Source: an uncultured Methanoregulaceae archaeon (GTDB lineage Archaea; Halobacteriota; Methanomicrobia; Methanomicrobiales; Methanospirillaceae). From it: a stretch of 64,000 nucleotides of DNA. Shown here in pieces: positions 311-34,976 of the stretch. Location: the NCBI GenBank assembly GCA_963705255.1, contig OY970061.1, positions 2,336,001-2,400,000 of the forward strand. Direction: 5' to 3'. The notes beneath the pieces were generated by a model. That model was not told the DNA's origin, did no database searches, and was given only the letters and a program-made list of their open reading frames with translations. Each line of letters starts with the position of its first letter. The first letter of the stretch is position 1. Position numbers and translations under genes: made by a program.

Positions 311-1324
311 ATGCCAAAAATAAACAGACCACGCCGTGGTTCTCTTGCATTCAGCCCAAGGAAGCGTGCAAAGAGCCCAATCCCGAAATACCAGTCGTGG
401 GCCCCCAGCCAGGGAGCACCGATCCTGCAGGGGTTTGCCGGATACAAAGTAGGTATGACGCATGTTGTCATGGTGGACGATCACAAAAACAGTCCTACCG
501 AGGGGAAAGAGATCATGGTGTCCGTCACCGTTATCGAAGTCCCCACCATGAAAGTTGCCGCAATCCGTGCCTATTCACGGGATACCTATGGCAAACACGC
601 CTTGACGGAGATATGGGCAGATCAGCTTGACAGCGTGCTTGGGCGCAGGATTACCCTGCCCAAAGACTACGACAAGGAAGCAGCCCTCAAGAAATTTTCG
701 GATGCCTTAAAAGCAGGTACGGTAGCCGAGATCCATGCTCTTACGTATACACAACCGGCATCTCTCTCCGGTGTTCCCAAGAAAGTTCCCGACCTGATGG
801 AGATCAAGATCGGGGGTGCAGACCTCGGCAAACAGTTTGAATTTGCCCAGGGTCTTCTCGGGAAAGAAGTATCCCTCGAAAGTGTGGTCCAGACGGGTGC
901 CTATGCGGACATTACCGCAATAACAACCGGTAAGGGGACACAGGGCGTCGTAAAGCGCTGGGGAGTCGCCCTGCGAAAGCGCAAACACGCAGTCGGCGGC
1001 AAAGAGCGCCACATCGGCACTCTTGGCCCGTGGAACCCGCACCACATCCGCTGGGAAGTTCCCCAGATCGGACAGATGGGATTCCAGCAGCGAACCGAAT
1101 TCAACAAGCGGATCCTGAAAATCAGCGAGGATGCCAGTGAGGTAACCCCGGCCGGTGGATTCCTCCATTACGGTGTACTCAAGAACCCGTATGTTCTCAT
1201 AAAAGGGTCAATTCCCGGCCCGGTAAAACGGCTCATCCGTATCCGTCCGGCAATCCGCCAGGGTGAACATGTCGTCAGGATGCCGACAATCCAGTTCGTG
1301 AGCGTCCAGAGCAAGCAGGGATGA
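311..1324 (+). CDS. rpl3: 50S ribosomal protein L3
   Basis: [37 protein letters not shown] motifs; first gene of S10-like operon. Confidence 0.98.
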
Positions 1325-1330
1325 TCAGAG

Positions 1331-2077
1331 ATGAAAGCACAGGTTAAATCACTTGACGGCGGAGTCACAAAAGACATCGAACTCCCGGAGATCTTTTCCG
1401 AGGATTACCGCCCCGATCTGATCAAGAAGGCAGTGATGGCCCTCCAGAGCACACGGAGACAGCCTCACGGGACATACCCGTATGCAGGTATCTGTTCATC
1501 GGCAGTCGGCTGGGGAAGCGGTCGCGGTTCATCCCACGTTCCCCGTATCAAGAACGGGTCGCGTGCAGCAAAAGTCCCGCAGGCAAAAGGTGGCCGCGAG
1601 GCACACCCCCCGGTCGTTGCGAAGATATTGATCAAGGAGATCAACCAGAAGGAAAAACAGAAGGCCTTCCGGTCCGCTGTTGCCGCAAGTATCAGCCAGG
1701 ACCTTCTCAAACTCCGGGGACACACCTTCGAAGGTGCAGTACCGATCGTCTTTGAGGATACGTTCGAGTCACTCGGCCGCACGCAGGACGTCATCTCTGC
1801 ACTTACCACTGCAGGTGTCTACAACGACATCGAACGGGCAAAGGAGAGCAAGAAGGTCAAGGCAGGAAGAGGCAAGATGCGCGGGCGCAGGTTCAAGCAG
1901 CGCAAGAGCCTCCTGATCGTGACTGCAGAAAAACCGCTTGTTGCAGCACGCAACCTTTCCGGCGTGGATGTCGTTACCGTTGACCAGCTGAACGTTGAGC
2001 ACCTCGCACCCGGCATGCAGGCCGGACGGTTGACCGTCTGGACAGAAGGTGCACTCATACGCCTGGAGGGGAGGTAA
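1331..2077 (+). CDS. rpl4: 50S ribosomal protein L4
   Basis: WGSGRG, GGREAHPP, LNVEHLAPG motifs; synteny. Confidence 0.98.
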   Translation: MKAQVKSLDGGVTKDIELPEIFSEDYRPDLIKKAVMALQSTRRQPHGTYPYAGICSSAVGWGSGRGSSHVPRIKNGSRAAKVPQAKGGREAHPPVVAKILIKEINQKEKQKAFRSAVAASISQDLLKLRGHTFEGAVPIVFEDTFESLGRTQDVISALTTAGVYNDIERAKESKKVKAGRGKMRGRRFKQRKSLLIVTAEKPLVAARNLSGVDVVTVDQLNVEHLAPGMQAGRLTVWTEGALIRLEGR

Positions 2078-2326
2078 ATGACCCTCAAGTACCCGTTTGT
2101 GACAGAGAAAGCGATGGTCCTCCTGGAGAACCAGAGCAAACTCCAGTTCCTCGTCACCCGCGAAGCAAGCAAGGACGACATCAAGCGTGAGATCGAAAAA
2201 GCATTCGGGCAGAATGTCAGGAGCGTCCGCACCCTGATGAACACGCACGGCCAGAAGAAGGCAATCGTGAGCTTTGAGAACGACAAAGCCGCCGAGGAGA
2301 TCCTCAGCCGGCTCGGTATAATGTAG
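2078..2326 (+). CDS. rpl23: 50S ribosomal protein L23
   Basis: PFVTEKA...KKAIV; synteny. Confidence 0.97.
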   Translation: MTLKYPFVTEKAMVLLENQSKLQFLVTREASKDDIKREIEKAFGQNVRSVRTLMNTHGQKKAIVSFENDKAAEEILSRLGIM

Positions 2327-2335
2327 GTGGGGAAC

Positions 2336-3052
2336 ATGGGACATCGAATCACAACACAAAGCCGGGGCAAGGGAGGCCCGACATACCGGGCACCATCCCA
2401 CCGGTACAAGGCGGAACTTAAGCACATCGGCGACGACACGCTGAAGATCACCGGGACGGTCATCGATATCGAACACGATCCCGCCCGGAATGCGCCGATC
2501 GCGCTCGTAAAACTCGAAGACGGGGAAAAAGTCTACATGCTCGTCACCGAAGGGCTCGGAATCGGCGAAGAGATCGTCTGGGGATCCAGCGGGGAAGTCA
2601 AGAACGGCAACACGCTCACACTCCAGAATATTCCCACCGGTACATTCATCTGCAATATCGAAGCCCGGCCCAACGACGGCGGCAAGTTCGTGCGTTCATC
2701 GGGAGTCCAGGCCGTCGTTGTCGACAAGATTGAGGACCGCGTCGGCGTCAGGATGCCCAGCGGCAAGACGAAATGGTTCAACCACCGCTGCCGTGCAACT
2801 GTCGGAATCGTTGCCGGTGGCGGCCGTGTCGAGAAGCCGTTCGTGAAAGCAGGCAACAAGTACCACAAGATGCAGAACACCGCATCCAACTGGCCACGCG
2901 TCCGTGGTGTCGCGATGAACGTCATCGACCACCCGTTCGGTGGCGGCGGGCACCAGCATACCGGCCGCCCCAAGACCATTGCGCGGGGAACCTCCCCGGG
3001 CAGGACCGTCGGCCATGTGGCAGCACGCAGGACAGGTAAGAGCAGGAAGTGA
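2336..3052 (+). CDS. rpl2: 50S ribosomal protein L2
   Basis: IEHDPARNAP, WPRVRGVAMNVIDHPFGGG; start set at ATG 2336. Confidence 0.98.
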   Translation: MGHRITTQSRGKGGPTYRAPSHRYKAELKHIGDDTLKITGTVIDIEHDPARNAPIALVKLEDGEKVYMLVTEGLGIGEEIVWGSSGEVKNGNTLTLQNIPTGTFICNIEARPNDGGKFVRSSGVQAVVVDKIEDRVGVRMPSGKTKWFNHRCRATVGIVAGGGRVEKPFVKAGNKYHKMQNTASNWPRVRGVAMNVIDHPFGGGGHQHTGRPKTIARGTSPGRTVGHVAARRTGKSRK

Positions 3053-3057
3053 TGGGT

Positions 3058-3477
3058 ATGGCAGCACCTAAAAAGACACAGAAGAGAATGCCAAGACGGC
3101 GTGAGGAGTTCACCTATCGCGGCTACAAGATCGACGAGCTGAAAGCGATGGGGATGAGCGAACTCCTCCCCCTTATGCCAGCCCGTCCCCGCCGCAAGAT
3201 CGTCCGCGGGTTCTCCCGTGGTGAAGAGACATTACTCGCTAAGGTTCGCGAAGGCGACGAGAAGATCCGGACTCACCTCCGTGAAATGATCGTCATGCCG
3301 GAGATGGTAGGCAAAACCATTGAGATCTACAATGGCAAGGAATTCGTGAAAGTCGAGTTCCAGCCGGAGTCGGTCTTCCACTATCTCGGAGAGTTTGCAC
3401 TGACAAGGAAGAGGGTCTCTCATGGGAGTGCCGGTATCGGTGCGACCAGAGGCAGCAAGTACGTTCCGCTGAAGTGA
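3058..3477 (+). CDS. rps19: 30S ribosomal protein S19
   Basis: [24 protein letters not shown]. Confidence 0.97.
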
Positions 3478-11822: not shown

Positions 11823-13256
11823 ATGGGAAACCTGCTGGATCGAATGGAACCCCTGCTTGCTGCGATGCCCGCAGTCAAGAGCCCTGAGGGACACGTTCAT
11901 TTCAAGAATAAACTGATCTGGACGCTGGGAATATTGATTCTGTATTTTGTCCTGACGAATATCCCGATTTTCGGTCTTTCTCCCTCAAGTCAGGATTTAT
12001 TTTCGGCATGGCGTGCACTCCTCGCCGGTGCCAGTGGATCGATCGTTCACCTTGGTATCGGGCCGATCGTCACTGCGTCCATCGTTCTCCAGCTGCTGAA
12101 AGGTGCAGATATCCTTCACATTGACACGAGCGAGACACGCGGGCAGGTCATGTACATGGGACTGCAGAAGATCCTCATCATGGTGATGATCGTGATCGAG
12201 GCAGCGCCAAACCTTGTCGGCAGTTTCATGCAGCCCAATCCGACCATTGCCACCCAGTTCTTTGGCGGCAACCTGTTTGCCGTATCCCTCCTCATCTTCA
12301 TCCAGATCTGCATCGGGGGGGTCCTCATCTTCTTCATGGATGAAGTGGTGACCAAATGGGGCATCGGATCCGGTGTCGGTCTCTTCATCATTGCCGGAAT
12401 CTCCCAGGCGCTCGTCAGCGGGTTCATCAACTGGGCAAAGGTACAGGACCAGTATCCGACCGGGTTCTTCCCGCGACTCATCGCCATCGGGTTGGACGGG
12501 GGCAGTTATCTCACGTACTTCGGTACGAATATCCTCGCGTTCATCACGACGATCGCCATCTTCCTCATCATCGTATACGTGGAGTCCACGCGGATCGAGA
12601 TCCCCCTTGCTCATGCGCAGGTGCGGGGCGCCCGGGCCCGTTTCCCGGTCAAACTGATCTATGCGAGTGTCCTCCCCATGATCCTCGTGCGGGTACTGCA
12701 GGCAAATATCCAGATGGTCGGGATGTTCTTATCCAATGTCGGTATCACCATGTTCGGGACGTTCAGCGGCTCGACACCCCAGAATGGTATCATGTGGTAC
12801 CTTGCCCCGATCAATGGTCCGAGCCAGTGGATGTGGTGGACGACTGATCTCGGGCATGCGGTATGGCAGGTGCTATTACGGATGGGAATAGATATCACAT
12901 TCATGGTAGTCGGAGGTGCGATCTTTGCACTCTTCTGGATCAAGACTGCCGGGCTCGATTCAAAGGATGTGGCCCGCCAGATCCAGCTGTCCGGCATGTC
13001 CATCCCTGGCTACCGGCGGAACCCGCAGGTGCTTGAAAAGTACCTTGACCGGTATATTCCCCGTGTCACCGTTATCGGTGGTGTCTTTATCGGTGTGCTC
13101 AGTGTCATTGCAAACCTCTTTGGTGTCATCGGTGCGGTGAGCGGGACAGGGTTGCTCCTGACCGTAAGTATCACGTACCGTCTCTACGAGGAGATTGCAA
13201 GCCAGCAGATCATGGAAATGTACCCGTTCATGCGGACCTTCTTTGGCAAAGAGTAA
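11823..13256 (+). CDS. secY: Preprotein translocase SecY
   Basis: LGIGPIVTASI, GIGSGVGLFI, IPGYRR, GTGLLLTV. Confidence 0.98.
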   Translation: MGNLLDRMEPLLAAMPAVKSPEGHVHFKNKLIWTLGILILYFVLTNIPIFGLSPSSQDLFSAWRALLAGASGSIVHLGIGPIVTASIVLQLLKGADILHIDTSETRGQVMYMGLQKILIMVMIVIEAAPNLVGSFMQPNPTIATQFFGGNLFAVSLLIFIQICIGGVLIFFMDEVVTKWGIGSGVGLFIIAGISQALVSGFINWAKVQDQYPTGFFPRLIAIGLDGGSYLTYFGTNILAFITTIAIFLIIVYVESTRIEIPLAHAQVRGARARFPVKLIYASVLPMILVRVLQANIQMVGMFLSNVGITMFGTFSGSTPQNGIMWYLAPINGPSQWMWWTTDLGHAVWQVLLRMGIDITFMVVGGAIFALFWIKTAGLDSKDVARQIQLSGMSIPGYRRNPQVLEKYLDRYIPRVTVIGGVFIGVLSVIANLFGVIGAVSGTGLLLTVSITYRLYEEIASQQIMEMYPFMRTFFGKE

Positions 13257-21692: not shown

Positions 21693-21878
21693 TCGTGTAT
21701 CATCTCTCTGGAAGAATTCCTGATGCGGGCTGAGTGGTGTGTACCCGCATCTTGTAAAGTATATGTTACATTTTGTAATATAAACTTTATGTTGTGTTGA
21801 ATATCACACCCATACCGGATCCTGAAGAAGGGTTTGAAGGCAGGTATGCGGATTGTGGGTCGAAACTACCCGATAGTC

Positions 21879-22064
21879 GGAATTCGCAGAACTCTGACGA
21901 GTTCTTCTCGTCCTCGAATTTCACTTCGCTCAATTCTTCGCAACTCGAAGAAATTTGAGAATTTCTTCTCTAGCTCGAATCGCACTACGTGCGATTCTTC
22001 GGAATTCGAAGAAACCTGATGGTTTCTTCTCGAATGAATCTTCTCGCTACGCTCGAAAATTCAT
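21879..22064 (-). repeat. Periodic array of six bulged hairpins (~30.5 bp period)
   Basis: Hairpins begin at about 21883, 21913, 21944, 21974, 22005 and 22035, most sharing TCGAA...TTC arms. Confidence 0.85.
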
Positions 22065-26804: not shown

Positions 26805-27700
26805 GCTGATGCCTCCTTGGCCTCAGTGTATGGTCCGTAGTTCCTGCGGGCCCAGACCTCGATGTACCGGTCTACGACCGTGAAGATGAGGATGATCAGG
26901 ATACCGGCGATGATTGCACCCCACCCGGCGCTGACCTGCTCGAAGAGGACAGTTCGCCAGAGTTCAAGGAAGACAATCAGACCGAAACAGACACCGGATG
27001 CGGAACCGCCGATCTTGGTGGTGAACCAGCCGTTGTCAATCGAGTTGCGCTCGCCTGCTTCGGCATAGCGGACGATGTTACCGGACGCCGAGATCGGGAC
27101 ACCTGCACCGAACTTCTGGTTCTGGTACTGGCGTTCCTTCCCGTAGTACGGGTTGCCTGTCGCAGATCCCGCTGCACCGAGAGCGATACCCCAGACCAGA
27201 CCGAGCAGCGGCAGCGGGAACGGGTGTCCCAGTGCGCTGTTCATCAAGTGACAGAGTGTAACGGTAGCGAAAATTGCGATAAAGGCATGTGCCATGGTAA
27301 CCGTCGTCATGGACTTGAGGATGTCCACGTAGATCGGCTGCCCGAACTTGGCGAGACTTGCCGTCCTGCCCAGGTATGCTGTGGTAGCATAGACGCCCTG
27401 TACCAATACTGCGAGTACAGAGCCCAGGACGATAGCAAGGACCGCGTTCATCTGCATCGCCATGAATGCCCATGCCAGGCCTGCGCCCAGGCAGCACCAG
27501 AGACCGTATGCCGGGGGTTCACCAGCAACCGCCTTGTTAAAGATGCGGTGCAGGAATCCCATCTGCGGCGCGAGCTGAACCTGTGAGTTCGGGTCACCCT
27601 GGGACCCGATGTTGGATTCAGTATCTTCCGCAGCACCGGCTACAGTGGCAAGAGCTCCAGCCAATGCAGTAATTCCAATGCCAAATACAATATGTTCCAT
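26801..27700 (-). CDS. mtrE: Mtr subunit E
   Basis: EDTESNIGSQGDPNSQVQLAPQM. Confidence 0.97.
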   Translation of the reverse strand: MEHIVFGIGITALAGALATVAGAAEDTESNIGSQGDPNSQVQLAPQMGFLHRIFNKAVAGEPPAYGLWCCLGAGLAWAFMAMQMNAVLAIVLGSVLAVLVQGVYATTAYLGRTASLAKFGQPIYVDILKSMTTVTMAHAFIAIFATVTLCHLMNSALGHPFPLPLLGLVWGIALGAAGSATGNPYYGKERQYQNQKFGAGVPISASGNIVRYAEAGERNSIDNGWFTTKIGGSASGVCFGLIVFLELWRTVLFEQVSAGWGAIIAGILIILIFTVVDRYIEVWARRNYGPYTEAKEASA

Positions 27701-27803
27701 TTAGCCTCCTCCCTACGTGCGAATGCACGAGAGTATTCAAAATGCAATGCCACGCACAACGAGTAGATACTCTTTGTGGTTAGTGTAAAATTGGCGACCG
27801 CCC

Positions 27804-27818
27804 GATTAAAAGGTTTCG
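27804..27818 (-). promoter_or_regulatory. Probable BRE/TATA of mtr operon
   Basis: Minus strand CGAAACCTTTTAATC ~105 bp upstream of mtrE. Confidence 0.5.
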
Positions 27819-28043
27819 AATTTATTTCGGCGATAGAAGAGTATATTAAGCCCGAATTAAAAATTAGGCGCCGTTTTGGGATTTTTTAATCATGTGGATT
27901 TGTGTTAAGGAAAATTAAGTTGTGTTGGAGTCAATAGGGGTTGCGTTATCGACGGAAGGTGTCAGGTGATTGAAAATCCTGAAAAAACAGGCCGGGAAGA
28001 GGGGGTGTAGGACCTCTCCTCCCGGGCAAAACCTTGGGGGCTA

Positions 28044-28279
28044 GTCGAAGAACTCCGTTCACTCGAAGGCCCTCTGCCTTCTCATGTCTCGGGCCCGACA
28101 TCCCTCAACAGGTCGAAGAACTGCGTTCTTCTCCTGCTTCGGGTCTGATGACCCTCAGCATTCTCCAGCCTCACCCTTTCAGGGTTCGGCTCAGGCCAGC
28201 GCCGTCACCCCGTCCGCCCAGGTTTCGATCCGTGTGCGGATCGCGTCGTCCTCGTAAGACGAGATGGTCACCTGCTGGC
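28044..28279 (-). repeat. Cluster of TC/TC-bulged hairpins of the same palindrome family
   Basis: CAGGTCGAAGAAC-TGC-GTTCTTCTCCTG, GCTTCGGGTC-TGAT-GACCCTCAGC, GCCTCACCCT-TTC-AGGGTTCGGC, CGATCCG-TGTG-CGGATCG. Confidence 0.75.
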
Positions 28280-28301
28280 GGGATCTCTCAATTTGAATTC
28301 T

Positions 28302-28510
28302 CCTCAATATCAGATTGAACGATAGATTCCGATGAGGTTAGAAAGAAGATCCTCTCAATTCCTTATTCGGAATGGAAAAAACATGGATTCTCCAAAGGTG
28401 GCTCAAATTATATGAAGAAGAATGTGGAGAGTGATAAGTCGTTTACTCTAAATAAGCATGTCAGGGTGCGGTTGGATCAGTGGAATGAGGGTGTAAAAAC
28501 TCAAACATAA
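28302..28510 (+). pseudogene. cas1: C-terminal fragment of a Cas1-solo (casposase)
   Basis: Manual translation PQYQIE(R)/IDSDEVRKKILSIPYSEWKKHGFSKGGSNYMKKNVESDKSFTLNKHVRVRLDQW resembles the C-terminal HTH extension of methanogen casposases; no start, no catalytic domain. Confidence 0.75.
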
Positions 28511-28615
28511 TGGCTAATATCGGGTTCGCAAATTGAGAGAGGAGTGTCGGCGGGCTAACGAGAAAAATAATATCGAAGAAAAAGTCTTTCATCGATTAAA
28601 ACCTTTTTTATCGTA

Positions 28616-29641
28616 ATGGTAATTAGAAAGAACATCAAGAAATTTCGGGAGTCTATCAATAAATTTGATATAAAAAGGCTGAAATTAGGGAGAAGGAAAG
28701 ATGGAAAAAATGGGGCTGCCCTTTCCGCGTCTCCTAATAGCAATAGAGAAACGACAGACGATGGTATTTTTTTATTTTTTCGAGAAAATGCTGATATTTT
28801 AGCCGCTATTGGTCTAATCGGGACAATGATATCGCTGATGCCTTCATTTCTTGAAAAACTTAATGACGATGTTTGGTTAGGAACATTTTCTAGTTTTCAA
28901 ATAACTTCTTTATTCTTATCAATAGTTGCGGGTATTATCTTCATTTTTTTACTTTTTTTAACCATTTGGGACAAATATTATCAAGCAAATGTCGAATTAC
29001 CGTTCGCGATTCTTCTTTTATTTTTTAGTATTTTTTTGATAGCCTTTTTACTTTTAATTTATTCAGCGATCCTGAAATATTTGTATGTTCAAGTTCTCCT
29101 TTTGGTAATCTACAGTTTCTTGGCGTATTTTTTAATATGTAATCTTAAAAACGAGACGAAAAAATCTAAAATTTTTTCAGTATTAGTGATTATTTTTTTA
29201 GTCATTTTGATTCTAATTAGCAGTATTGCTGGTTCGATTACAGTGTTTTCTATTGGAGTTGCGATCCCAGATTCAAACAATACAAAAATTCAAGCGGACG
29301 TGAATTATTATTCCCCGTTAATTCCTCAAACATATGGAATAGGGTTTTCACCGACTACGAACAAAAAAATATCTTTTAATAATTATAACATAACTTGGAC
29401 GACTGATTTTGGATATTTTTTCATTTTCGACGCAAATTATGACAGAATTAAATATTTAGGAAATTCTACAATAAATCATGGTCAAGTAGTTTATTGGACT
29501 TATGATAAAGAAAAAATTGGGCAAAATAAACCCGTAGTTAACGTATCAATGATAATAAAAAATCAATCCAATGAAACTTTGACAACATCATTCTTACAAA
29601 TAAATTGGTCTAATATTGATATGGCGCATGTAATTACATGA
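28616..29641 (+). CDS. AT-rich multi-pass membrane protein, hypothetical (cargo)
   Basis: 341-aa ORF, ~5 hydrophobic segments plus an Asn-rich soluble domain; visibly much more AT-rich than flanks. Confidence 0.75.
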   Translation: MVIRKNIKKFRESINKFDIKRLKLGRRKDGKNGAALSASPNSNRETTDDGIFLFFRENADILAAIGLIGTMISLMPSFLEKLNDDVWLGTFSSFQITSLFLSIVAGIIFIFLLFLTIWDKYYQANVELPFAILLLFFSIFLIAFLLLIYSAILKYLYVQVLLLVIYSFLAYFLICNLKNETKKSKIFSVLVIIFLVILILISSIAGSITVFSIGVAIPDSNNTKIQADVNYYSPLIPQTYGIGFSPTTNKKISFNNYNITWTTDFGYFFIFDANYDRIKYLGNSTINHGQVVYWTYDKEKIGQNKPVVNVSMIIKNQSNETLTTSFLQINWSNIDMAHVIT

Positions 29642-29748
29642 TACCATTTTCTTTTTTACTTTGATACTTTTGCAGAACAGTGATATCAATCGCGATGTAG
29701 AATGTGACGTGTGGCATTTTGCAGATACCTATAACCCCCCTTAGTTAA

Positions 29749-29772
29749 TGCGAGGGTTATGATTCGAACCTC
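29749..29772 (-). other. Degenerate tRNA (Leu-like) 3' fragment / attachment-site relic
   Basis: Minus strand GAGGTTCGAATCATAACCCTCGCA has the T-loop motif and acceptor 3' strand; no 5' half. Confidence 0.55.
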
Positions 29773-29779
29773 CAGATTT

Positions 29780-30420
29780 TCCATCCCCCTCCAGACCCCC
29801 TCCTCAGAGGGGTCCCCTACCCCCTACTCCTCCGGGCATGGGAGGGGTACCCCCCGCTCTGCTGAGGGAGGGGTAGCTACCCCCCTGTCTGACAGCCCCA
29901 GCACCTGCCCTTCCCCTGGAATATCCGACGGTATATTCTGTTTTTGCCGGCCCAGATAAAAGGGGGGGATACCCACCCCACCTTGCCTGAGGGGGGTACC
30001 CCCTTGTCCTGTGCAGGGAGGGGTACCCCTCCCCCCTGCCCCCCTTTGCTCAGACCACTCCCTCCACCCCACCCGTCCCTCAGTGAGAGGGGTAGGTACC
30101 TCTCTCGTGTTGCATGCCCGTGATCTTAAATTCGCGTGGAGTTCCCGTCGGTGAATCCGGTTTCCGGGCGGGTCCTGATCAAGGGGGTACCCACCTCTCA
30201 TATGCTAAGAGGGGTACCTACCCCCCCTTCCCCTGCCTCATTAGAAGGGGCACCCCCATCCCCGCAATCCAGCAGCAGGGGGGGGTCACCCCCCACGTGA
30301 AAACCAAACGGAGGGGGGGGTCGGATTGCGTCTGGAAAAAAGTTGGAGGGGGGGTTACCCCCCTGTTGAAAAATAAACGGGAGGGGGGTCGACCGTTGAC
30401 TCCCCCATTGCTTTTGGGCC
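29780..30420. repeat. Field of G-run/C-run mini-palindromes with a ~45-bp direct repeat
   Basis: About ten GGGG(T/G)AC(C/T)CC-type units; 30277-30323 and 30348-30391 are similar. Confidence 0.75.
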
Positions 30421-30501
30421 GGGCGGGGCCAGCCAGTGTATCACAGAGGCATTATGGTAATCTGTATGACAAGGTAATATACGAAAAGACCGGGCGTTTG
30501 C

Positions 30502-30716
30502 ATGCTTGTCAAATTCGAGTTCTATTCAGATGGTACATTCTGGTGCGGCCGGGTACCGGGGTCGATATCTTTACGCAGGGAAAGACTCTTGACGAGCTTG
30601 CGGCGAACATCCGGGAAGCGGTAGAACTCCGTTTTGCAGACGCACTGGAAAAGGGGGAGACCATCCGTATCCTCTCAATATCCGGGGCTGAGGTCGATAA
30701 TGATGTCCAGGCTTGA
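30502..30716 (+). CDS. HicB-like antitoxin, frameshift near 30552
   Basis: MLVKFEFYSDGTFWCGR continues in a shifted frame as GTGVDIFTQGKTLDELAANIREAVEL. Confidence 0.7.
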
Positions 30717-30870
30717 TGAAATCGTAGTGGAGGAATATCCCCCCGATGCAGATCTTACTGACGAACTTCTGTCCGATGAAGAGATCGAGGATATGAAGGC
30801 AAGCACGGACGATATCAGAGCCGGGCGGGTAAAGACGCTCAAGACCGTCCGGGATGAGCTCCATATCTGA
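30703..30870 (+). CDS. Small acidic antitoxin-like protein or fragment
   Basis: LSDEEIEDMKASTDDIRAGRVKTLKTVRDEL resembles C-termini of archaeal type II antitoxins. Confidence 0.5.
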   Translation: MSRLDEIVVEEYPPDADLTDELLSDEEIEDMKASTDDIRAGRVKTLKTVRDELHI

Positions 30871-30896
30871 TTACACAAAAAGATCTGCACGGATTA

Positions 30897-33227
30897 TTGA
30901 TCCGGTTTTCCAGGCCCCACACCCTTGCACACAATCGATACCTTAATGCCGATGCATGTATCCGATATTCAGTACCGCAACCATTCTCCTTGACAGAGGT
31001 GCCCGAAATCGCTCAGCAGGAAAACCGACCGGAGAAAAACCACACCCCCTTCATTGACTTCCCGGGAAAGGGGGACGATACCCGGCTCGGGGCCGTTATA
31101 GCATTCCTCATCGCGGTCATCTTCATCTTCGATATCGTGACCCCGCTCAGCCTCGTGGTCTGGACGCTCTACCTCCTGCCGCTCTTCCTGACCGTGTACG
31201 CCCGGCAGCGGTTCGCCCCTGTGTACGTCGCATTCGCGGTGATCCTGCTCTCCATCATCGGTATTTTTCTTTCGTACCCGGATGTCCCGATCACGAATGC
31301 GCTGGTCAACCGCGTCTTCTTCTCCATGGTGCTCGTTGTCCTCGCCTACTTCATCTGGAATTACCGGGAAAATGTATCGGCCCTCGGCGAAAGCAGGGAA
31401 AGGCTCCGGCAGGCCAACGCCCTGCTCACCAGCCACATGGGCAACTCCCCGCTTGCCATCGTCGAATTCGATGCGCAGTTCCGGATCACCCGCTGGACGG
31501 GCGAAGCCACCCGGATTTTTGGCTGGACAGCGGATGAGGTGATGGGGAAGGCTATCGGTGAGTTCCCCTGGGTCTACGAGGAGGATGTCTCCCGGGTGAC
31601 CGCGATCTCTGCCGCCATGCTTGAAGGGAAGAGCCCCAGCAACATGCACGCCAACCGCAACTACCGGAAGGACGGAACGGTAATCGAGTGCGAATGGTAC
31701 AACTCGGCCCTCCGGGACAAGGAGGGAAACCTCGTCTCGATCTTCTCCCAGGTACTGGAAGTGACGGCGCGAAGGCGTGCGGAAGCAGAAATCAGGAAGA
31801 AAAATACCGAACTGAACGCCGCCAACGAGGAGCTGACGGCTGCACAGGAAGAACTCAGGCAGAACGTCGACGAACTTGGGAAAAAAGAGCAGGAACTGAC
31901 CGAACAGAACGAGGAGATGAAGGCGCTTAACGAGGAGCTCACCTCGACTCACGAAAAACTGGTCCAGAACTTCGATGAACTCGCCCGGGCGGAGACTGCC
32001 CTCAGGGAGTCAAACGAGCGTCTTGAACAGCGCGTCGCGGAGCGGACGTTGCAGCTGGAAAAAGCCGTGAATGTTGCGGGAGCCGAACGCAAGCGGCTGT
32101 ACGACGTGCTCGATACCCTGCCGGCCTATGTCTGCCTGCTTGACGAAAATTACCATATGCCCTTTGCCAACCGGTACTTCCGGGAGACGTTCGGGGAATC
32201 GCACGGCCGGTGCTGTTACGATTTCCTCTTCAACAAGACCGCGCCTTGCGAAACGTGTGAGACGTACACCGTCATGAAGACACGGGCGCCCCATCATTGG
32301 TACTGGACCGGCCCGAACGGCAGGGATTACGACATCTACGACTTCCCCTTCGCTGACACGGACGGCTCGTTCCTGATCCTCGAGATGGGTATCGACATCA
32401 CGGAGAGGAACAAGGCAGAAAAAGCCCTCCGGGAAGCGCACGATGTCCTCGAGGCCCGGGTGCAGGAACGGACAAAAGAACTCCGGCAGAAGAACGAAGA
32501 CCTCAATGCGCTCAACGAAGAACACACCGCAACGCAGGAAGAGCTCCGGCAGAATCTCGAAGAACTCACCCTCAGGGAGGAGGATCTCAGTAAAGCGCTC
32601 GCTGAAAAAGAGGTCCTCCTCTCCGAGATCCACCACCGGGTCAAGAACAACCTGACTGCATTCATCTCCCTGCTCAGCCTCGAAGGTGCCTACCAGGACA
32701 CACCCGACGGGCGTGCGCTCCGCCTCGACCTGCAGAACCGGGCGCGGAGCATGGCGCTCGTCCACGAGACCCTGTACAGGACACATATGTATAATGAAGT
32801 CGATATGGGGGTTTACCTCACAAACCTCATTGACCAGATTGAAAATTCGTTCAAGACACAACGATCGGTAAAAACAGTCGTCGACGCTCACGGGATCATG
32901 CTCGATATCCCGCGGGCAACTCCTGCCGGGCTCATCGTCAACGAGCTGATGACCAACGCCCTCAAGCACGCCTTCCCCGAATCCGCCACGTGCGGGACAC
33001 CGGGGTCGGAACCGTGCACTTTCCGTGTCGAATTCGCCCAAAGCGACGGGTTCTATACGCTCTCGGTCAGCGACAACGGGATTGGTCTCCCGGCCTCGAT
33101 TGATATCAAAACAACGAAGTCCCTCGGGCTCAAGCTCGTGCACTTCCTCGCAAAGCACCAGCTCCGGGCCACCATTGACATCGACACGTCAGGCGGCACA
33201 AAATATACGTTCCGGTTCGAGGCGTAA
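30897..33227 (+). CDS. Membrane PAS-PAS sensor histidine kinase (HisKA_2 type)
   Basis: N-terminal TMs, two PAS/PAC domains, EIHHRVKNNL, NELMTNALKHAF, DNGIG, SLGL; start uncertain. Confidence 0.92.
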   Translation: MIRFSRPHTLAHNRYLNADACIRYSVPQPFSLTEVPEIAQQENRPEKNHTPFIDFPGKGDDTRLGAVIAFLIAVIFIFDIVTPLSLVVWTLYLLPLFLTVYARQRFAPVYVAFAVILLSIIGIFLSYPDVPITNALVNRVFFSMVLVVLAYFIWNYRENVSALGESRERLRQANALLTSHMGNSPLAIVEFDAQFRITRWTGEATRIFGWTADEVMGKAIGEFPWVYEEDVSRVTAISAAMLEGKSPSNMHANRNYRKDGTVIECEWYNSALRDKEGNLVSIFSQVLEVTARRRAEAEIRKKNTELNAANEELTAAQEELRQNVDELGKKEQELTEQNEEMKALNEELTSTHEKLVQNFDELARAETALRESNERLEQRVAERTLQLEKAVNVAGAERKRLYDVLDTLPAYVCLLDENYHMPFANRYFRETFGESHGRCCYDFLFNKTAPCETCETYTVMKTRAPHHWYWTGPNGRDYDIYDFPFADTDGSFLILEMGIDITERNKAEKALREAHDVLEARVQERTKELRQKNEDLNALNEEHTATQEELRQNLEELTLREEDLSKALAEKEVLLSEIHHRVKNNLTAFISLLSLEGAYQDTPDGRALRLDLQNRARSMALVHETLYRTHMYNEVDMGVYLTNLIDQIENSFKTQRSVKTVVDAHGIMLDIPRATPAGLIVNELMTNALKHAFPESATCGTPGSEPCTFRVEFAQSDGFYTLSVSDNGIGLPASIDIKTTKSLGLKLVHFLAKHQLRATIDIDTSGGTKYTFRFEA

Positions 33228-33368
33228 AGACTTTTTCCGGAGCCGGAAACGGCCGGATCCGGCCTCTTCTCTCGGAAAACTCCCCACAACCGCTATCATG
33301 CATCATGGTTGAAGAACAGGGTGCCACCATCCCAACCCCTAAATATGATCCAGCTCACATCACTGCCC

Positions 33369-33755
33369 ATGGCAAACATTGCATACTTCGATATCCCGGC
33401 CGACAACGTCGACCGCGCGAAGCACTTCTACCACGCCCTCCTCGGGTGGAAGATCGAACCGACCGCGGTTCCCATGGACTCTCCGAAGATGGCAGCGATG
33501 CAGTACCAGGATGTCACGACCGGCAAACCCCTAGAAGGGACCATGCATATGGGCGGACTGTACAAGCGGCAGATGAACGAGCCGATCAAAAACTACGTGA
33601 TGGTCGACGACATCGACAAGGTGCTCGCCAAGGTGGAGAAACTGGGAGGGAAGATTGCCATGCCGAAGGAGGAGATCAAGGGGGTCGGGCTGGTGGCGAT
33701 GATCCAGGACTCCGAAGGAAATATCATCGGCCTCTGGAAGCCGGCGATGCGGTAG
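33369..33755 (+). CDS. VOC/glyoxalase family protein
   Basis: FDIPADNVDRAKHFY..LLGW, DSEGNIIGLW. Confidence 0.9.
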   Translation: MANIAYFDIPADNVDRAKHFYHALLGWKIEPTAVPMDSPKMAAMQYQDVTTGKPLEGTMHMGGLYKRQMNEPIKNYVMVDDIDKVLAKVEKLGGKIAMPKEEIKGVGLVAMIQDSEGNIIGLWKPAMR

Positions 33756-33827
33756 GCCCGGACCTGCCTTAAAATCCAGGCACTCCTAGGAGGAGCAGAC
33801 CGGCAAAAACCGTAAACCCTGTTCTGA

Positions 33828-34976
33828 CTACCGCTCCACAACCGACCGCATCAGCGCCATGATGCCCGGCTTCGCCTTCTTCCGGGGCGCACCGAACCCC
33901 ACCCCCGGCTCCTCGAACATCTCTTTGTTCAGCCGCTCGTTGAGCTCGTCGAAGATCCGCTTGTAGGCCGTGCAGTGGGGGTCAACCCCGTCGAGCGATC
34001 CGCCGGAGGGGGCGATCGCGTTGTAAGGGCAGCCTCCCCGGCAGTATTTGATGTGCGAACAGTCCCTGCAGGCCAGATCCACGTACTCAGAGAACGCCGT
34101 CATGCGCAGCCCGGGTCCGGACTGCATGAGGTCCTCCATCTTCGGGCGGTCCCGCACGTTGCCCATCACCCACTCCGGCATCCCGACAAAGCGGTAGCAG
34201 GGGTAGATGCTCCCGTCGGGGCCGATGGCGAACGTGTTGCCCATGCAGTTGACGAACGTGCAGACACTCCCCCGCCGGGTGAAGACGCAGCGGCAGAGGT
34301 CGTTGATGTTCATGACTTCCATAGTGCCGATATTTTCCAGCGACTTGTCGAGGAGGTAGACGAGAAGTTCGCCGTATTCCGCCGGTTCGAGCGCCCACTC
34401 CTTCGGGTTCTCCGAGCGGAGCGATGGGAGGGCAGGGTGCAGTTTCAGGACGAACCCTTTCTCCCTGAAAAAACTGAAGATCTCTTCCCGGTGTTTCACT
34501 GATTTGTTGGTGAACGTGCAGATGAACCGGACAAAAAGACCGTGGGATCTCGCGATCCCGTAACCCTTCATGCACTTTTCATAGTACCCCGCCCCCCGCT
34601 GGGAATCCGTGATCTCCTCCGGGCCGTCGATGCTGGAGCCGATGGGTATCCGGTACTCTGCGAGGACCTCTGCGATCTCCGGGGTCATCCGCCAGAGGTT
34701 CGTCTGCATCGCAAACTCGGGGGTGAGTTCCTTCAGCTCCCCCGCGAGCAGGGGCAGGGCCTGCCGGTAAAAATCAGCTCCTGCAAGGAGCGGCTCCCCG
34801 CCGTGGAAGGTGAAGGTGACCCGGTCGGAACGGAAATTTTTGAGCCAGACCACGACTTCCTTTACCGTGTCGATGCTCATGATTGGAGATCCTTCCTCCG
34901 AGCTCCAGCAGTACCTGCACTTGGACGGGCACCCGAGCGTCGGGATGAGCATGATGTGGAAAGGGCTCTTCATCAC
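33828..34976 (-). CDS. Radical SAM/SPASM enzyme (methanogen peptide-modifying type, TIGR04083-like)
   Basis: IPTLGCPSKCRYC, FHGGEPLL, SPASM cysteines C...GSIYPC...CRDC...YCRGGC...C. Confidence 0.85.
   Translation of the reverse strand: MMKSPFHIMLIPTLGCPSKCRYCWSSEEGSPIMSIDTVKEVVVWLKNFRSDRVTFTFHGGEPLLAGADFYRQALPLLAGELKELTPEFAMQTNLWRMTPEIAEVLAEYRIPIGSSIDGPEEITDSQRGAGYYEKCMKGYGIARSHGLFVRFICTFTNKSVKHREEIFSFFREKGFVLKLHPALPSLRSENPKEWALEPAEYGELLVYLLDKSLENIGTMEVMNINDLCRCVFTRRGSVCTFVNCMGNTFAIGPDGSIYPCYRFVGMPEWVMGNVRDRPKMEDLMQSGPGLRMTAFSEYVDLACRDCSHIKYCRGGCPYNAIAPSGGSLDGVDPHCTAYKRIFDELNERLNKEMFEEPGVGFGAPRKKAKPGIMALMRSVVER

What the first reader, a model, noticed from the sequence alone, without database searches (positions are those of the whole stretch)
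28302..28510. Hidden casposase (Cas1-solo) C-terminal relic
Seen: an unannotated 62-codon frame IDSDEVRKKILSIPYSEWKKHGFSKGGSNYMKKNVESDKSFTLNKHVRVRLDQW, preceded by PQYQIE in a shifted frame. From memory this matches the C-terminal HTH extension of euryarchaeal family-2 casposases (pattern IER.DS..IR.KIL.I.Y..WKK.GFSKG.L.YMK.N..S.KPFTLN). There is no CRISPR array or other cas gene in the window. Inference: the fossil of a self-synthesising transposon that lost polB and most of cas1.
Basis: partly seen in the sequence, partly recalled or inferred. Interest (0 to 1): 0.7.

Follow-up and report, generated by a model that had tools for sequence, protein, structure and literature searches.

The report
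Casposon right-arm relic beside mtr operon
A dead 1.5-kb stump of a casposon (the self-copying transposon family thought to have given rise to CRISPR) lies next to a methanogen's mtr operon, keeping only the tail of its integrase gene, one passenger gene and one intact end.

Summary
Window 28284-28510 encodes the last 75 of about 406 residues of a family-2-type casposase (Cas1-solo). It is broken by one frameshift and has no start codon. It matches the solved M. mazei casposase 6opm at E 3.9e-16 and metagenomic Cas1 proteins at up to 84% identity.

The relic is larger than reported. It is a 1,455-nt low-GC right arm of a casposon (28284-29738):
- the cas1 tail;
- an intact 341-aa membrane passenger gene;
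- an intact terminal inverted repeat (29664-29738);
- a 14-nt CGCA-type target site;
- a 22-27-nt tRNA-Leu-3'-like pseudo-target.

polB, the other repeat and four fifths of cas1 are gone. The left edge (28283|28284) is a breakpoint inside a host gene, and a contig from a public run still carries that gene unbroken at this exact base.

Such one-ended stubs are common in this genus. I found 100 repeat hits in 56 of 108 genomes, but only 2 full-length casposases in 101 genomes. Fragments are C-terminal because cas1 and polB are both transcribed outward toward the ends.

Casposon remnants are already known, so this is a new member of a known kind. Interest is moderate.

The parts
28191..28283 (-). 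3' remnant (last 30 codons plus stop) of a host gene ('gene X'). The family has 6 full-length paralogs of about 170-227 aa in this genome and no Pfam family.
   Evidence: tblastn of paralogs: residues 190-219 / 145-176 map to window 28283/28292-28194. The intact gene sits in the same place next to mtrE in relative G009 (L151 464-1051(-)). Pfam finds nothing.
28284..28322 (+). Casposase codons about 332-344 (SLNLNSPQYQIER), in the frame shifted relative to the rest.
   Evidence: DNA identity is 83% to L029 and 72% to L013 starting at 28283.
28323..28324 (+). Frameshift site: one base is missing compared with intact casposase genes.
   Evidence: DNA alignment A2: window CGATA-GATTCC versus L029 CGACACGATTCC and L013 CGTCAAGATTCC.
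28325..28510 (+). Casposase codons about 346-406 (C-terminal HTH region) plus the stop. There is no start codon before 28412.
28616..29641 (+). Intact 341-aa passenger (cargo) gene. The protein has 4-5 membrane helices and a C-terminal beta-sandwich domain; its function is unknown.
   Evidence: It is the only open frame of the six (chance of no stop at this composition is 5e-13). Seven homologs at 52-67% identity, no Pfam. Distant homologs occupy the same slot between a cas1 tail and the repeat in L131 and L195, with a weak one in L121. AF2 model pLDDT 62.6.
29664..29738 (+). Right terminal inverted repeat of the casposon. Its outer end is ...CTATAACCCC at 29738.
   Evidence: A model made from window + L012 finds the same motif in 20 further loci at E<=1e-4. 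TIR HMM hit 29664-29738; alignment A4; R1 hit 29666-29737. The same repeat bounds both ends of the full element in L013/L112.
29739..29752 (-). 14-nt target-site sequence of the CGCA+10 type (CGCATTAACTAAGG on the minus strand). Only one copy is present.
   Evidence: Alignments. No second copy with <=2 mismatches in the window. The full element in L112 has CGCATTCTCTTCTT on both sides. The type is described for M. mazei in PMC4779613 and PMC6977970 (passages).
29749..29775 (-). tRNA-Leu 3'-end-like pseudo-target (GGAGGTTCGAATCATAACCCTCGCA). The T-loop and acceptor end are kept but the 3' half of the T-stem is degenerate, so this is not a tRNA gene.
   Evidence: Alignment with eight real tRNA-Leu genes next to casposon ends. 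ARAGORN finds no tRNA in the window. 37 of 59 repeat ends have a T-loop-like motif in this position, against 0 of 57 control flanks.

Best explanation
Window 28284-29738 is the immobile right arm of a family-2-type casposon. It once integrated, cas1 side first, next to a roughly 30-nt tRNA-Leu-3'-like sequence.

What remains, in order: the last 75 codons of the casposase gene (dead: one frameshift, no start codon), one intact passenger gene, the complete right terminal repeat, and the 14-nt CGCA-type target.

Everything on the far side of the target is gone: the other repeat, polB, the genes between, and four fifths of cas1. About five sixths of the neighbouring host gene X is gone too. The most likely cause is a single illegitimate deletion whose breakpoint is 28283|28284.

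With one end and no casposase or polymerase, the stump cannot move or copy itself. The cas1 piece has no function. The passenger gene probably still works as a host membrane protein.

Shown: homology, the anatomy, the breakpoint, and the recurrence of the same architecture elsewhere. Inferred: the original full-length insertion, the single deletion, and activity of the passenger gene.
For: (1) Homology to casposases.

(2) Foreign composition: GC is 28-44% over 28200-29800 against about 54-64% on either side.

(3) The terminal repeat plus CGCA+10 plus a tRNA-like T-loop matches the ends of a complete 8,971-nt element in L112/L013. That element is bounded by tRNA-Leu(CAA), identical 14-nt duplications and both repeats. 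It also matches the M. mazei target defined in vitro as the duplication plus 30 bp of tRNA-Leu (PMC6977970, passages).

(4) The distance from the cas1 end to the repeat is 1,169 nt here and 1,518 nt in the complete element. It is 751-2,156 nt in the 18 of 40 cas1 fragments that have a downstream repeat in the same orientation; that count includes the window.

(5) The breakpoint is exact. Host gene X homology ends at 28283 and cas1 homology begins at 28284. One contig of run X1 matches 27800-28283 with 1 difference, then runs on for 255 letters. By my reading, the first 30 continue gene X in frame as PNGEIYFVNF (table 7). Relative G009 has gene X whole at this place.

(6) A contig of X1 bridges the repeat's outer end (29697-30102).

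(7) The genome holds only two such repeats, neither paired.

(8) Normal casposon excision in M. mazei leaves a clean empty site (PMC10359463, passages), so a stump needs an aberrant event.
Against: There is no second repeat and no second target copy, so transposition into this site cannot be proven from the locus itself.

The target is a degenerate tRNA-like piece, not a tRNA gene. How it came to be there is unexplained.

The window was among the sequences used to build the repeat models. Its own score is therefore circular; the support comes from the other loci matching a window+L012 model.

Only one complete element with this repeat family was found in the 108 genomes scanned with R1.

The run with the unbroken gene X contig may be the sample from which the genome was assembled. 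That contig is a single record, and no contig met the tool's 31-letter rule for bridging 28283 (X3 record 12 has 20 letters beyond it).

The single-deletion history is inferred. A truncated insertion would leave the same picture.

Three of four metagenome loci with homologs of the passenger gene show no cas1 or repeat in the flanks fetched.
Confidence: 0.88

Rival explanations
1. Dead on arrival. The stump was never a complete insertion. One casposon end was joined to the tRNA-like pseudo-target (single-ended integration). The broken-off other side was then patched into the chromosome by host repair, truncating the element within cas1 and deleting part of gene X.
For: The M. mazei casposase gives single-ended as well as double-ended products in vitro (PMC6977970, passages). 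All stubs examined are anchored on the repeat next to the tRNA-like side. The target here is a minimal pseudo-site. The stub allele and an allele with intact gene X differ by 1 of 484 flanking letters, so the event is recent.
Against: Ordinary deletion explains the same anatomy, and an essential tRNA on one side explains why that side survives. Stub lengths run from solo repeats to more than 5 kb, as erosion predicts. The relic already has a frameshift and changes at two columns that are invariant among 9 casposases (L372, A379 in P0008 numbering). That fits some time spent decaying. Nothing was observed directly.
Confidence: 0.08
2. The fragment is a pseudogene of an ordinary CRISPR-associated cas1 left from a lost CRISPR-Cas locus.
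For: Sources label the homologs 'CRISPR-associated protein Cas1'. The genome has two other Cas1-like genes.
Against: Those two genes are only 21-28% identical to the casposase query, and their matches stop at residue 275-290. The relic lies wholly beyond the Pfam Cas1 domain, which covers residues 27-305. That is the C-terminal HTH part that the eLife paper says Cas1-Cas2 lacks (PMC6977970). Close full-length homologs sit beside polB, between inverted repeats, at tRNA-Leu. No array is present.
Confidence: 0.01
3. The piece is a living small gene: a domesticated stand-alone HTH protein, for example the 32-aa ORF from ATG 28412.
For: The frame is open for 63 codons. Some fragments in other genomes lie inside ORFs of 110-250 aa.
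Against: There is no start codon for the conserved part, and there is a frameshift. Many sister fragments carry in-frame stops. Fragment start points are scattered from residue 171 to 372, so they do not share the common start expected of a gene.
Confidence: 0.02
4. The junctions are assembly artefacts of a metagenome-assembled genome.
For: The genome is a single 2.6-Mb contig of 89.5% estimated completeness. GC jumps sharply at both edges.
Against: The same architecture (host DNA, cas1 tail, 1-2 kb low-GC cargo, repeat, tRNA-like site, host DNA) recurs in 17 other loci from other genomes and in metagenome contig L195. Short-read contigs cover 28127-28303 and 29697-30102 without conflict.
Confidence: 0.01

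Closest known systems
Family 2 casposons of methanogens (M. mazei casposons; casposase structure 6OPM)
   Same: The casposase C-terminal HTH sequence matches (E 3.9e-16 to 6opm_A). The target is the 3' end of tRNA-Leu, with a 14-bp duplication beginning CGCA whose first 4 bp are the last 4 of the tRNA (PMC4779613 and PMC6977970, passages). Terminal inverted repeats are present, and full-length relatives carry polB.
   Different: Here only one arm survives: there is no polB, no catalytic Cas1 domain, no second repeat and no second duplication. The target is a degenerate tRNA-like stub, not a tRNA gene. I did not compare the repeat sequence with the M. mazei repeats.
Solo-TIRs of M. mazei (Krupovic et al. 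2016, PMC4779613; passages seen)
   Same: Both are remnants of casposons that keep one terminal repeat beside the CGCA target and outnumber full-length elements.
   Different: This remnant also keeps about 1.4 kb of interior, including a passenger gene and a cas1 tail. The paper's passages describe solo-TIRs 'without any casposon genes'. Its supplementary files, which I could not open, may list intermediate forms.
Degraded casposons of Methanococcoides burtonii and the second, TIR-less element of Methanolobus psychrophilus (PMC4779613, PMC4046053; passages seen)
   Same: Both are inactive casposon copies with broken core genes.
   Different: Those elements are described as lacking recognisable repeats and duplications while keeping fragmented core genes. 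This one is the reverse: one perfect end and almost no core.
Casposase of the record titled Methanoregula formicica (P0015) and its element (L111)
   Same: The relic is 67-71% identical to it. The element shares the gene order polB(-) ... cas1(+) and lies next to tRNA-Leu.

Membership tests
Casposon (intact, autonomous, family 2) | Complete cas1-solo (casposase) gene with the catalytic Cas1 domain plus a C-terminal HTH | tested here: not met
   Only residues about 332-406 remain, with one frameshift and no start codon. Pfam's Cas1 model covers residues 27-305 and does not hit the fragment.
Casposon (intact, autonomous, family 2) | Family B DNA polymerase gene inside the element | tested here: not met
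   tblastn with L013 polB finds nothing in the window. The genome has a 35-aa scrap at C1:2162549-2162653, a 22-aa scrap at C1:1016842-1016907 and one weak 23%-identity match at C1:848544-848906.
Casposon (intact, autonomous, family 2) | Two terminal inverted repeats flanked by a target-site duplication | tested here: not met
   One repeat (29664-29738) and one target copy are present. No partner was found in the genome or the window.
Casposon remnant (relic derived from a family-2-type casposon) | Sequence homology of the surviving coding piece to casposases that sit next to polB | tested here: met
Casposon remnant (relic derived from a family-2-type casposon) | A terminal repeat of the same family that bounds a complete element, in the right orientation and at the right distance from cas1 | tested here: met
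   1,169 nt here against 1,518 nt in L112.
Casposon remnant (relic derived from a family-2-type casposon) | The repeat abuts a CGCA+10 target preceded by tRNA-Leu 3' sequence | tested here: met
   The tRNA-like part is degenerate (T-stem 3' half CATAA).
Casposon family 2 rather than families 1, 3 or 4 | Placement in the Cas1 phylogeny and core gene content | tested here: inconclusive
   No tree was built. Support is indirect: the HTH tail is present (family 1 lacks it, PMC8464041 abstract), the best solved match is the M. mazei casposase, and the full-length relative L013 has polB plus a weak HNH hit. The fragment is too short for a reliable tree.
CRISPR-associated Cas1 | Neighbouring cas2 or a CRISPR array; no C-terminal HTH | tested here: not met
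   No array is present. The fragment is the HTH tail itself. cas2 was not searched.

The most novel reading that the evidence does not exclude
The repeat-anchored stumps, this one included, are not slowly eroded full copies. They are products of single-ended integration at minimal tRNA-like pseudo-targets, finished off by host repair, which would make them a prokaryotic analogue of 5'-truncated LINE copies. Their intact passenger genes are then kept by selection. On this reading casposons serve their hosts mainly as one-way gene delivery vehicles. They would also leave behind 'leader-like tRNA piece + repeat' modules of the kind proposed as raw material for CRISPR arrays.
Probability: 0.1. Interest if true: 0.65.

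Novelty: new member of a known kind. Interest (0 to 1): 0.4.

Why it matters
Casposons matter because Cas1, the enzyme that writes CRISPR memory, is thought to descend from their integrase. Their repeats next to a leader-like sequence are thought to be the seed of CRISPR arrays.

This locus adds no new kind of element. It is a cleanly dissected natural example of what is left when a casposon dies: one end, the target, and a passenger gene.

Three by-products may interest specialists:
- The natural pseudo-target is about as long as the minimal target defined in vitro for M. mazei (duplication plus 30 bp).
- In one methanogen genus, stumps and solo repeats outnumber live elements by roughly fifty to one.
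- The puzzling excess of C-terminal casposase pseudogenes has a simple geometric cause, because cas1 and polB both point outward.

The fragment escapes domain-based annotation because it lies outside the Pfam Cas1 model.

Tried and rejected
1. The perfect 12-nt inverted repeat 28284-28295 / 28529-28540 that brackets the fragment was tested as a mini-element's ends and rejected. The left arm is cas1 coding sequence (KSLDL codons, conserved in L029 and L013). The right arm is not conserved after the stop in L013. By my own estimate, about 0.3 such exact pairs are expected by chance in 3.3 kb.

2. Pfam and NCBIfam on the fragment gave nothing. The reason is that the Pfam Cas1 model ends at residue 305.

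3. Rfam found no family in the window at gathering scores, and only sub-threshold noise in 27700-30900.

4. The first searches for a repeat right after cas1 in nine casposase loci (eight of them full-length), and between the two GC borders of L013, found nothing convincing. The ends were found only after window and L012 turned out to share about 100 nt at their right GC border.

5. I considered a special mechanism for the C-terminal bias of the fragments (LINE-like truncation, or a promoter inside the cas1 tail). I set it aside when polB C-terminal fragments turned up in 11 of 41 further repeat loci, all pointing at the repeat. Outward transcription of both core genes is enough to explain the bias.

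6. The passenger protein has no Pfam or NCBIfam family and no relative in the first 78 loci. Foldseek on a mediocre model (pLDDT 62.6) gave only generic beta-sandwich matches with TM <= 0.48. No function is assigned.

7. Expression: no RNA holder is listed for 28200-29800.

8. In the laid contigs, 28529-28933 and several other bins have no cover. Nothing is concluded from that.

9. The bacterial promoter and terminator scan is not informative for an archaeon.

Supplementary files of the casposon papers could not be opened; they may list repeats, remnants or Methanoregula elements that bear on the novelty claim.

11. Not in print, as far as my two full-text searches go: a description of C-terminal-only casposase relics, or of casposon stumps in Methanoregula. 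In one search no listed paper held both 'casposon' and 'Methanoregula'.

Full report
**The observation.** An open frame 28319-28507 gives TIDSDEVRKKILSIPYSEWKKHGFSKGGSNYMKKNVESDKSFTLNKHVRVRLDQWNEGVKTQT followed by a stop. SPQYQIER lies in the adjacent frame just upstream. There is no ATG, GTG or TTG before 28412.

**Is it more than chance?** A sequence search of PDB chains returns the M. mazei casposase 6opm_A, residues 362-421 of 431, at E 3.9e-16; the next hit has E 0.16. A search of 5.8 billion proteins, restricted to longer proteins, returns 32 hits. All that carry a name or a Pfam family are Cas1 or PF01867, except two labelled hypothetical protein. Identity reaches 84% and E reaches 8e-23. 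The hits include full-length proteins of 389-413 aa, one of them from a record named Methanoregula formicica.

Read through with X at the break, 28284-28507 aligns with residues 332-402 of a 406-aa casposase at 73% identity. Compared with intact genes, one base is missing at 28323/28324.

Pfam and NCBIfam see nothing. The reason is that Pfam's Cas1 model covers only residues 27-305 of these proteins. The relic is the C-terminal HTH part, which the structural paper found essential for integration but disordered in the crystal (PMC6977970, passages).

**Surroundings.**
- To the left is the mtrEDCB operon on the minus strand.
- Next come 250 nt conserved in relatives, then two copies of a 60-nt genome-wide repeat.
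- At 28191-28283 (minus strand) lie the last 30 codons of a host gene. This gene has six full paralogs in the genome and sits whole at this very place in relative G009.
- From 28284, GC drops from about 58% to 28-44% and stays low until about 29750.
- The island holds the cas1 tail and a 341-codon ORF. That ORF is the only open frame of the six, and the chance of no stop at this composition is 5e-13.

**The right end.**
- The window and a second relic in another species of the genus (L012) share about 100 nt exactly where GC rises again.
- A profile built from these two finds the same motif in 20 further loci at E <= 1e-4.
- Aligned, the motif has three parts: a conserved repeat of 60-75 nt (GGGTTATAG...GATATCAC, alignment A4), a variable 14 nt beginning CGCA, and tRNA T-loop/acceptor sequence.
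- ARAGORN finds tRNA-Leu genes at the casposon borders in L013, L111, L014, L027, L113, L137, L141 and L145.

**A complete reference element.** In L112/L013 the repeat occurs at both ends in inverted orientation, 8,971 nt apart, with the identical 14-mer CGCATTCTCTTCTT on both sides. The element contains polB(-) and cas1(+). This agrees with what is published for M. mazei: a tRNA-Leu target, a 14-bp duplication whose first 4 bp (CGCA) are the last 4 of the tRNA, and a minimal in vitro target of the duplication plus 30 bp of tRNA (PMC4779613 and PMC6977970, passages).

**The end in the window.** The repeat is 29664-29738 and the CGCA+10 target is 29739-29752. The tRNA-like piece is 29749-29775; it keeps the T-loop and acceptor end but has a degenerate T-stem. 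There is no tRNA gene anywhere in the 64 kb. The five real tRNA-Leu genes of the genome carry no such repeat.

**The left edge is a breakpoint, not an end.** Host-gene homology stops at 28283 and cas1 homology starts at 28284. One 829-nt contig from public run X1 matches 27800-28283 with a single difference. It then continues for 255 letters unlike the window. By my reading, the first 30, taken on the minus strand and in frame, give PNGEIYFVNF, which is what the paralogs have at that position (table 7, compared). So an allele with the host gene unbroken exists, and the break is exact. Caveats:
- That run may be the source of the assembly.
- The evidence is one contig.
- The contig that crosses 28283 in the window's form (X3 record 12, 28127-28303) has only 20 letters beyond the break, fewer than the 31 the tool asks for.
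- Another contig does bridge the repeat's outer end (29697-30102).

No second copy of the 14-mer exists in the window, and the genome has no partner repeat.

**How it most likely arose.** A casposon inserted with its cas1 side toward the tRNA-like target. Both orientations occur among full elements:
- L013, L027 and L111 have the polB side next to the tRNA.
- L014 has the cas1 side next to it.

Later an illegitimate deletion ran from cas1 codon about 331 through polB and the far repeat into host gene X. Normal excision cannot give this result, because in M. mazei it restores a clean empty site (PMC10359463, passages). A truncated one-ended insertion would leave the same anatomy, and I cannot exclude it.

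**The wider pattern: cas1 fragments.** In 101 genomes of the genus (G000 included), a casposase query finds 2 full-length genes (G086, G100). After fetching the loci I counted 40 fragments at >=38% identity, including the window. One weaker match, L136, fell below this filter. Of the 40:
- 34 reach residue 383 or beyond;
- 6 are internal pieces;
- none includes the first 170 residues.

Upstream of the fragments GC is mostly host-like (about 45-65%). Downstream it is mostly 22-45% for 1-3 kb. In 18 of the 40, the repeat lies 751-2,156 nt downstream in the right-end orientation.

**The wider pattern: repeats.** A sequence-only covariance model of the repeat (R1) finds 100 hits in 56 of 108 genomes. 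I fetched 40 further hits and added the genome's own second copy, giving 41 loci. They form a continuum:
- about 13 are solo repeats, with host GC immediately inside;
- others are stubs of about 0.75-3.3 kb;
- a few are longer than 5 kb.

In 11 of the 41 there is a C-terminal polB fragment, and it always points at the repeat. One is a stub in this same genome at C1:2162549-2166067.

**Why the fragments are C-terminal.** In the complete element the polB 3' end lies 1.4 kb from the left repeat and the cas1 3' end lies 1.5 kb from the right repeat. Both genes read outward. Any stump anchored on a repeat therefore keeps a C-terminal piece. No special mechanism is needed.

**Which side survives.** 37 of 59 repeat ends are preceded by a T-loop-like motif, against 0 of 57 control flanks. 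The surviving end is therefore usually the one next to the tRNA or tRNA-like side. Where the tRNA is real, its essentiality would explain why deletions spare that side.

**Limits of these counts.**
- The genomes are kin, and some loci are orthologous (for example L012 and L132), so these are not independent events.
- R1 misses other repeat families. It finds nothing in G100, which has a full element.

**The passenger gene.**
- It has seven homologs of 254-343 aa at 52-67% identity, none with a Pfam family.
- Distant relatives sit in the same slot, between a cas1 tail and the repeat: the L131 cargo (27-29% identity), a weak match in L121, and metagenome contig L195. L195 repeats the whole architecture.
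- The other three metagenome loci show no cas1 or repeat in the fetched flanks.
- The slot holds unrelated genes in other stubs.
- The model shows membrane helices and a beta-sandwich domain, with no informative structural match.

**Comparison and verdict.** This is a casposon remnant of the family-2 type. It fails every test for an intact casposon: there is no catalytic Cas1, no polB, and only one repeat and one target copy. It passes the tests for derivation from one. Remnants are already known:
- solo-TIRs in M. mazei;
- fragmented elements in M. burtonii;
- a decaying second copy in M. psychrophilus.

The locus is therefore a new member of a known kind, not a new kind.

The genus-wide stump census, the natural pseudo-target and the geometric explanation of C-terminal relics are modest additions.

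Noticed in passing
window 28043-28172: Two tandem copies of a roughly 60-nt repeat (GTCGAAGAACT...). It has about 30 copies scattered over the genome and many in relatives. Its nature is unknown.
   Followed up: partly
window 29800-30400: A GC-rich stretch full of GGGGGGTACCCCCC-type palindromes at roughly 30-35-nt spacing. Similar stretches occur at four or more other places in the genome (C1:1795607, 1236028, 1233334, 71520). It abuts the pseudo-tRNA target.
   Followed up: no
own genome C1:2162549-2166067 (L152 12550-16068), outside the window: A second casposon stump, this time a left arm. It has a repeat at 2166003-2166067 next to a T-loop/CGCA site, about 3.4 kb of 27-42% GC, and the last roughly 35 codons of polB (80% identity) pointing at the repeat.
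   Followed up: partly
own genome C1:1016842-1016907, outside the window: A 22-aa polB C-terminal scrap (77% identity, E 0.003), 1.07 kb from the 3' end of tRNA-Leu(CAG) and pointing toward it. It may be a third relic with a different repeat family.
   Followed up: no
L170 (G073:C5:192800-196810) 603-3409: A 2.8-kb element bounded by both repeats in inverted orientation. It sits next to a tRNA-Leu-like end and has only a polB C-terminal fragment inside. It looks like an internally deleted, possibly still mobilisable mini-casposon.
   Followed up: partly
L112 6790-6931 (= L013 about 12730-12870): Directly after the right repeat and duplication of the complete element comes another repeat in left-end orientation, followed by about 0.8 kb of low-GC DNA. 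This is a tandem older relic at the regenerated target.
   Followed up: partly
L116 2951-3199; L140 2785-3255; L146 2892-3514; L142 3034-3399: Rearranged relics. In L116 a left-oriented repeat abuts cas1 residues 332-398. In the other three loci a polB C-terminal fragment lies directly beside a cas1 fragment.
   Followed up: no
window 28191-28283 and genome paralogs (C1:1630242, 2014927, 201323, 2469243, 2059538, 1380490): A family of 170-227-aa proteins with six paralogs and no Pfam family. One member normally sits next to the mtr promoter.
   Followed up: partly
window 27950-33829 compared with L151 (G009): The interval between mtrE and the next conserved block is a variable zone. G009 carries its own unrelated 4.5-kb low-GC island there, without the casposon repeat.
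   Followed up: partly
window 21877-22033: A 61-nt tandem repeat of 2.6 copies with 73% matches.
   Followed up: no
L146, L114, L120, L152 outer flanks of the repeat: Four stumps share a target flank (...AATCATGCTCGTWAYC-GGTTCGAATCC...) that ARAGORN does not call a tRNA. It may be a different tRNA-like or partial gene used as a target.
   Followed up: no
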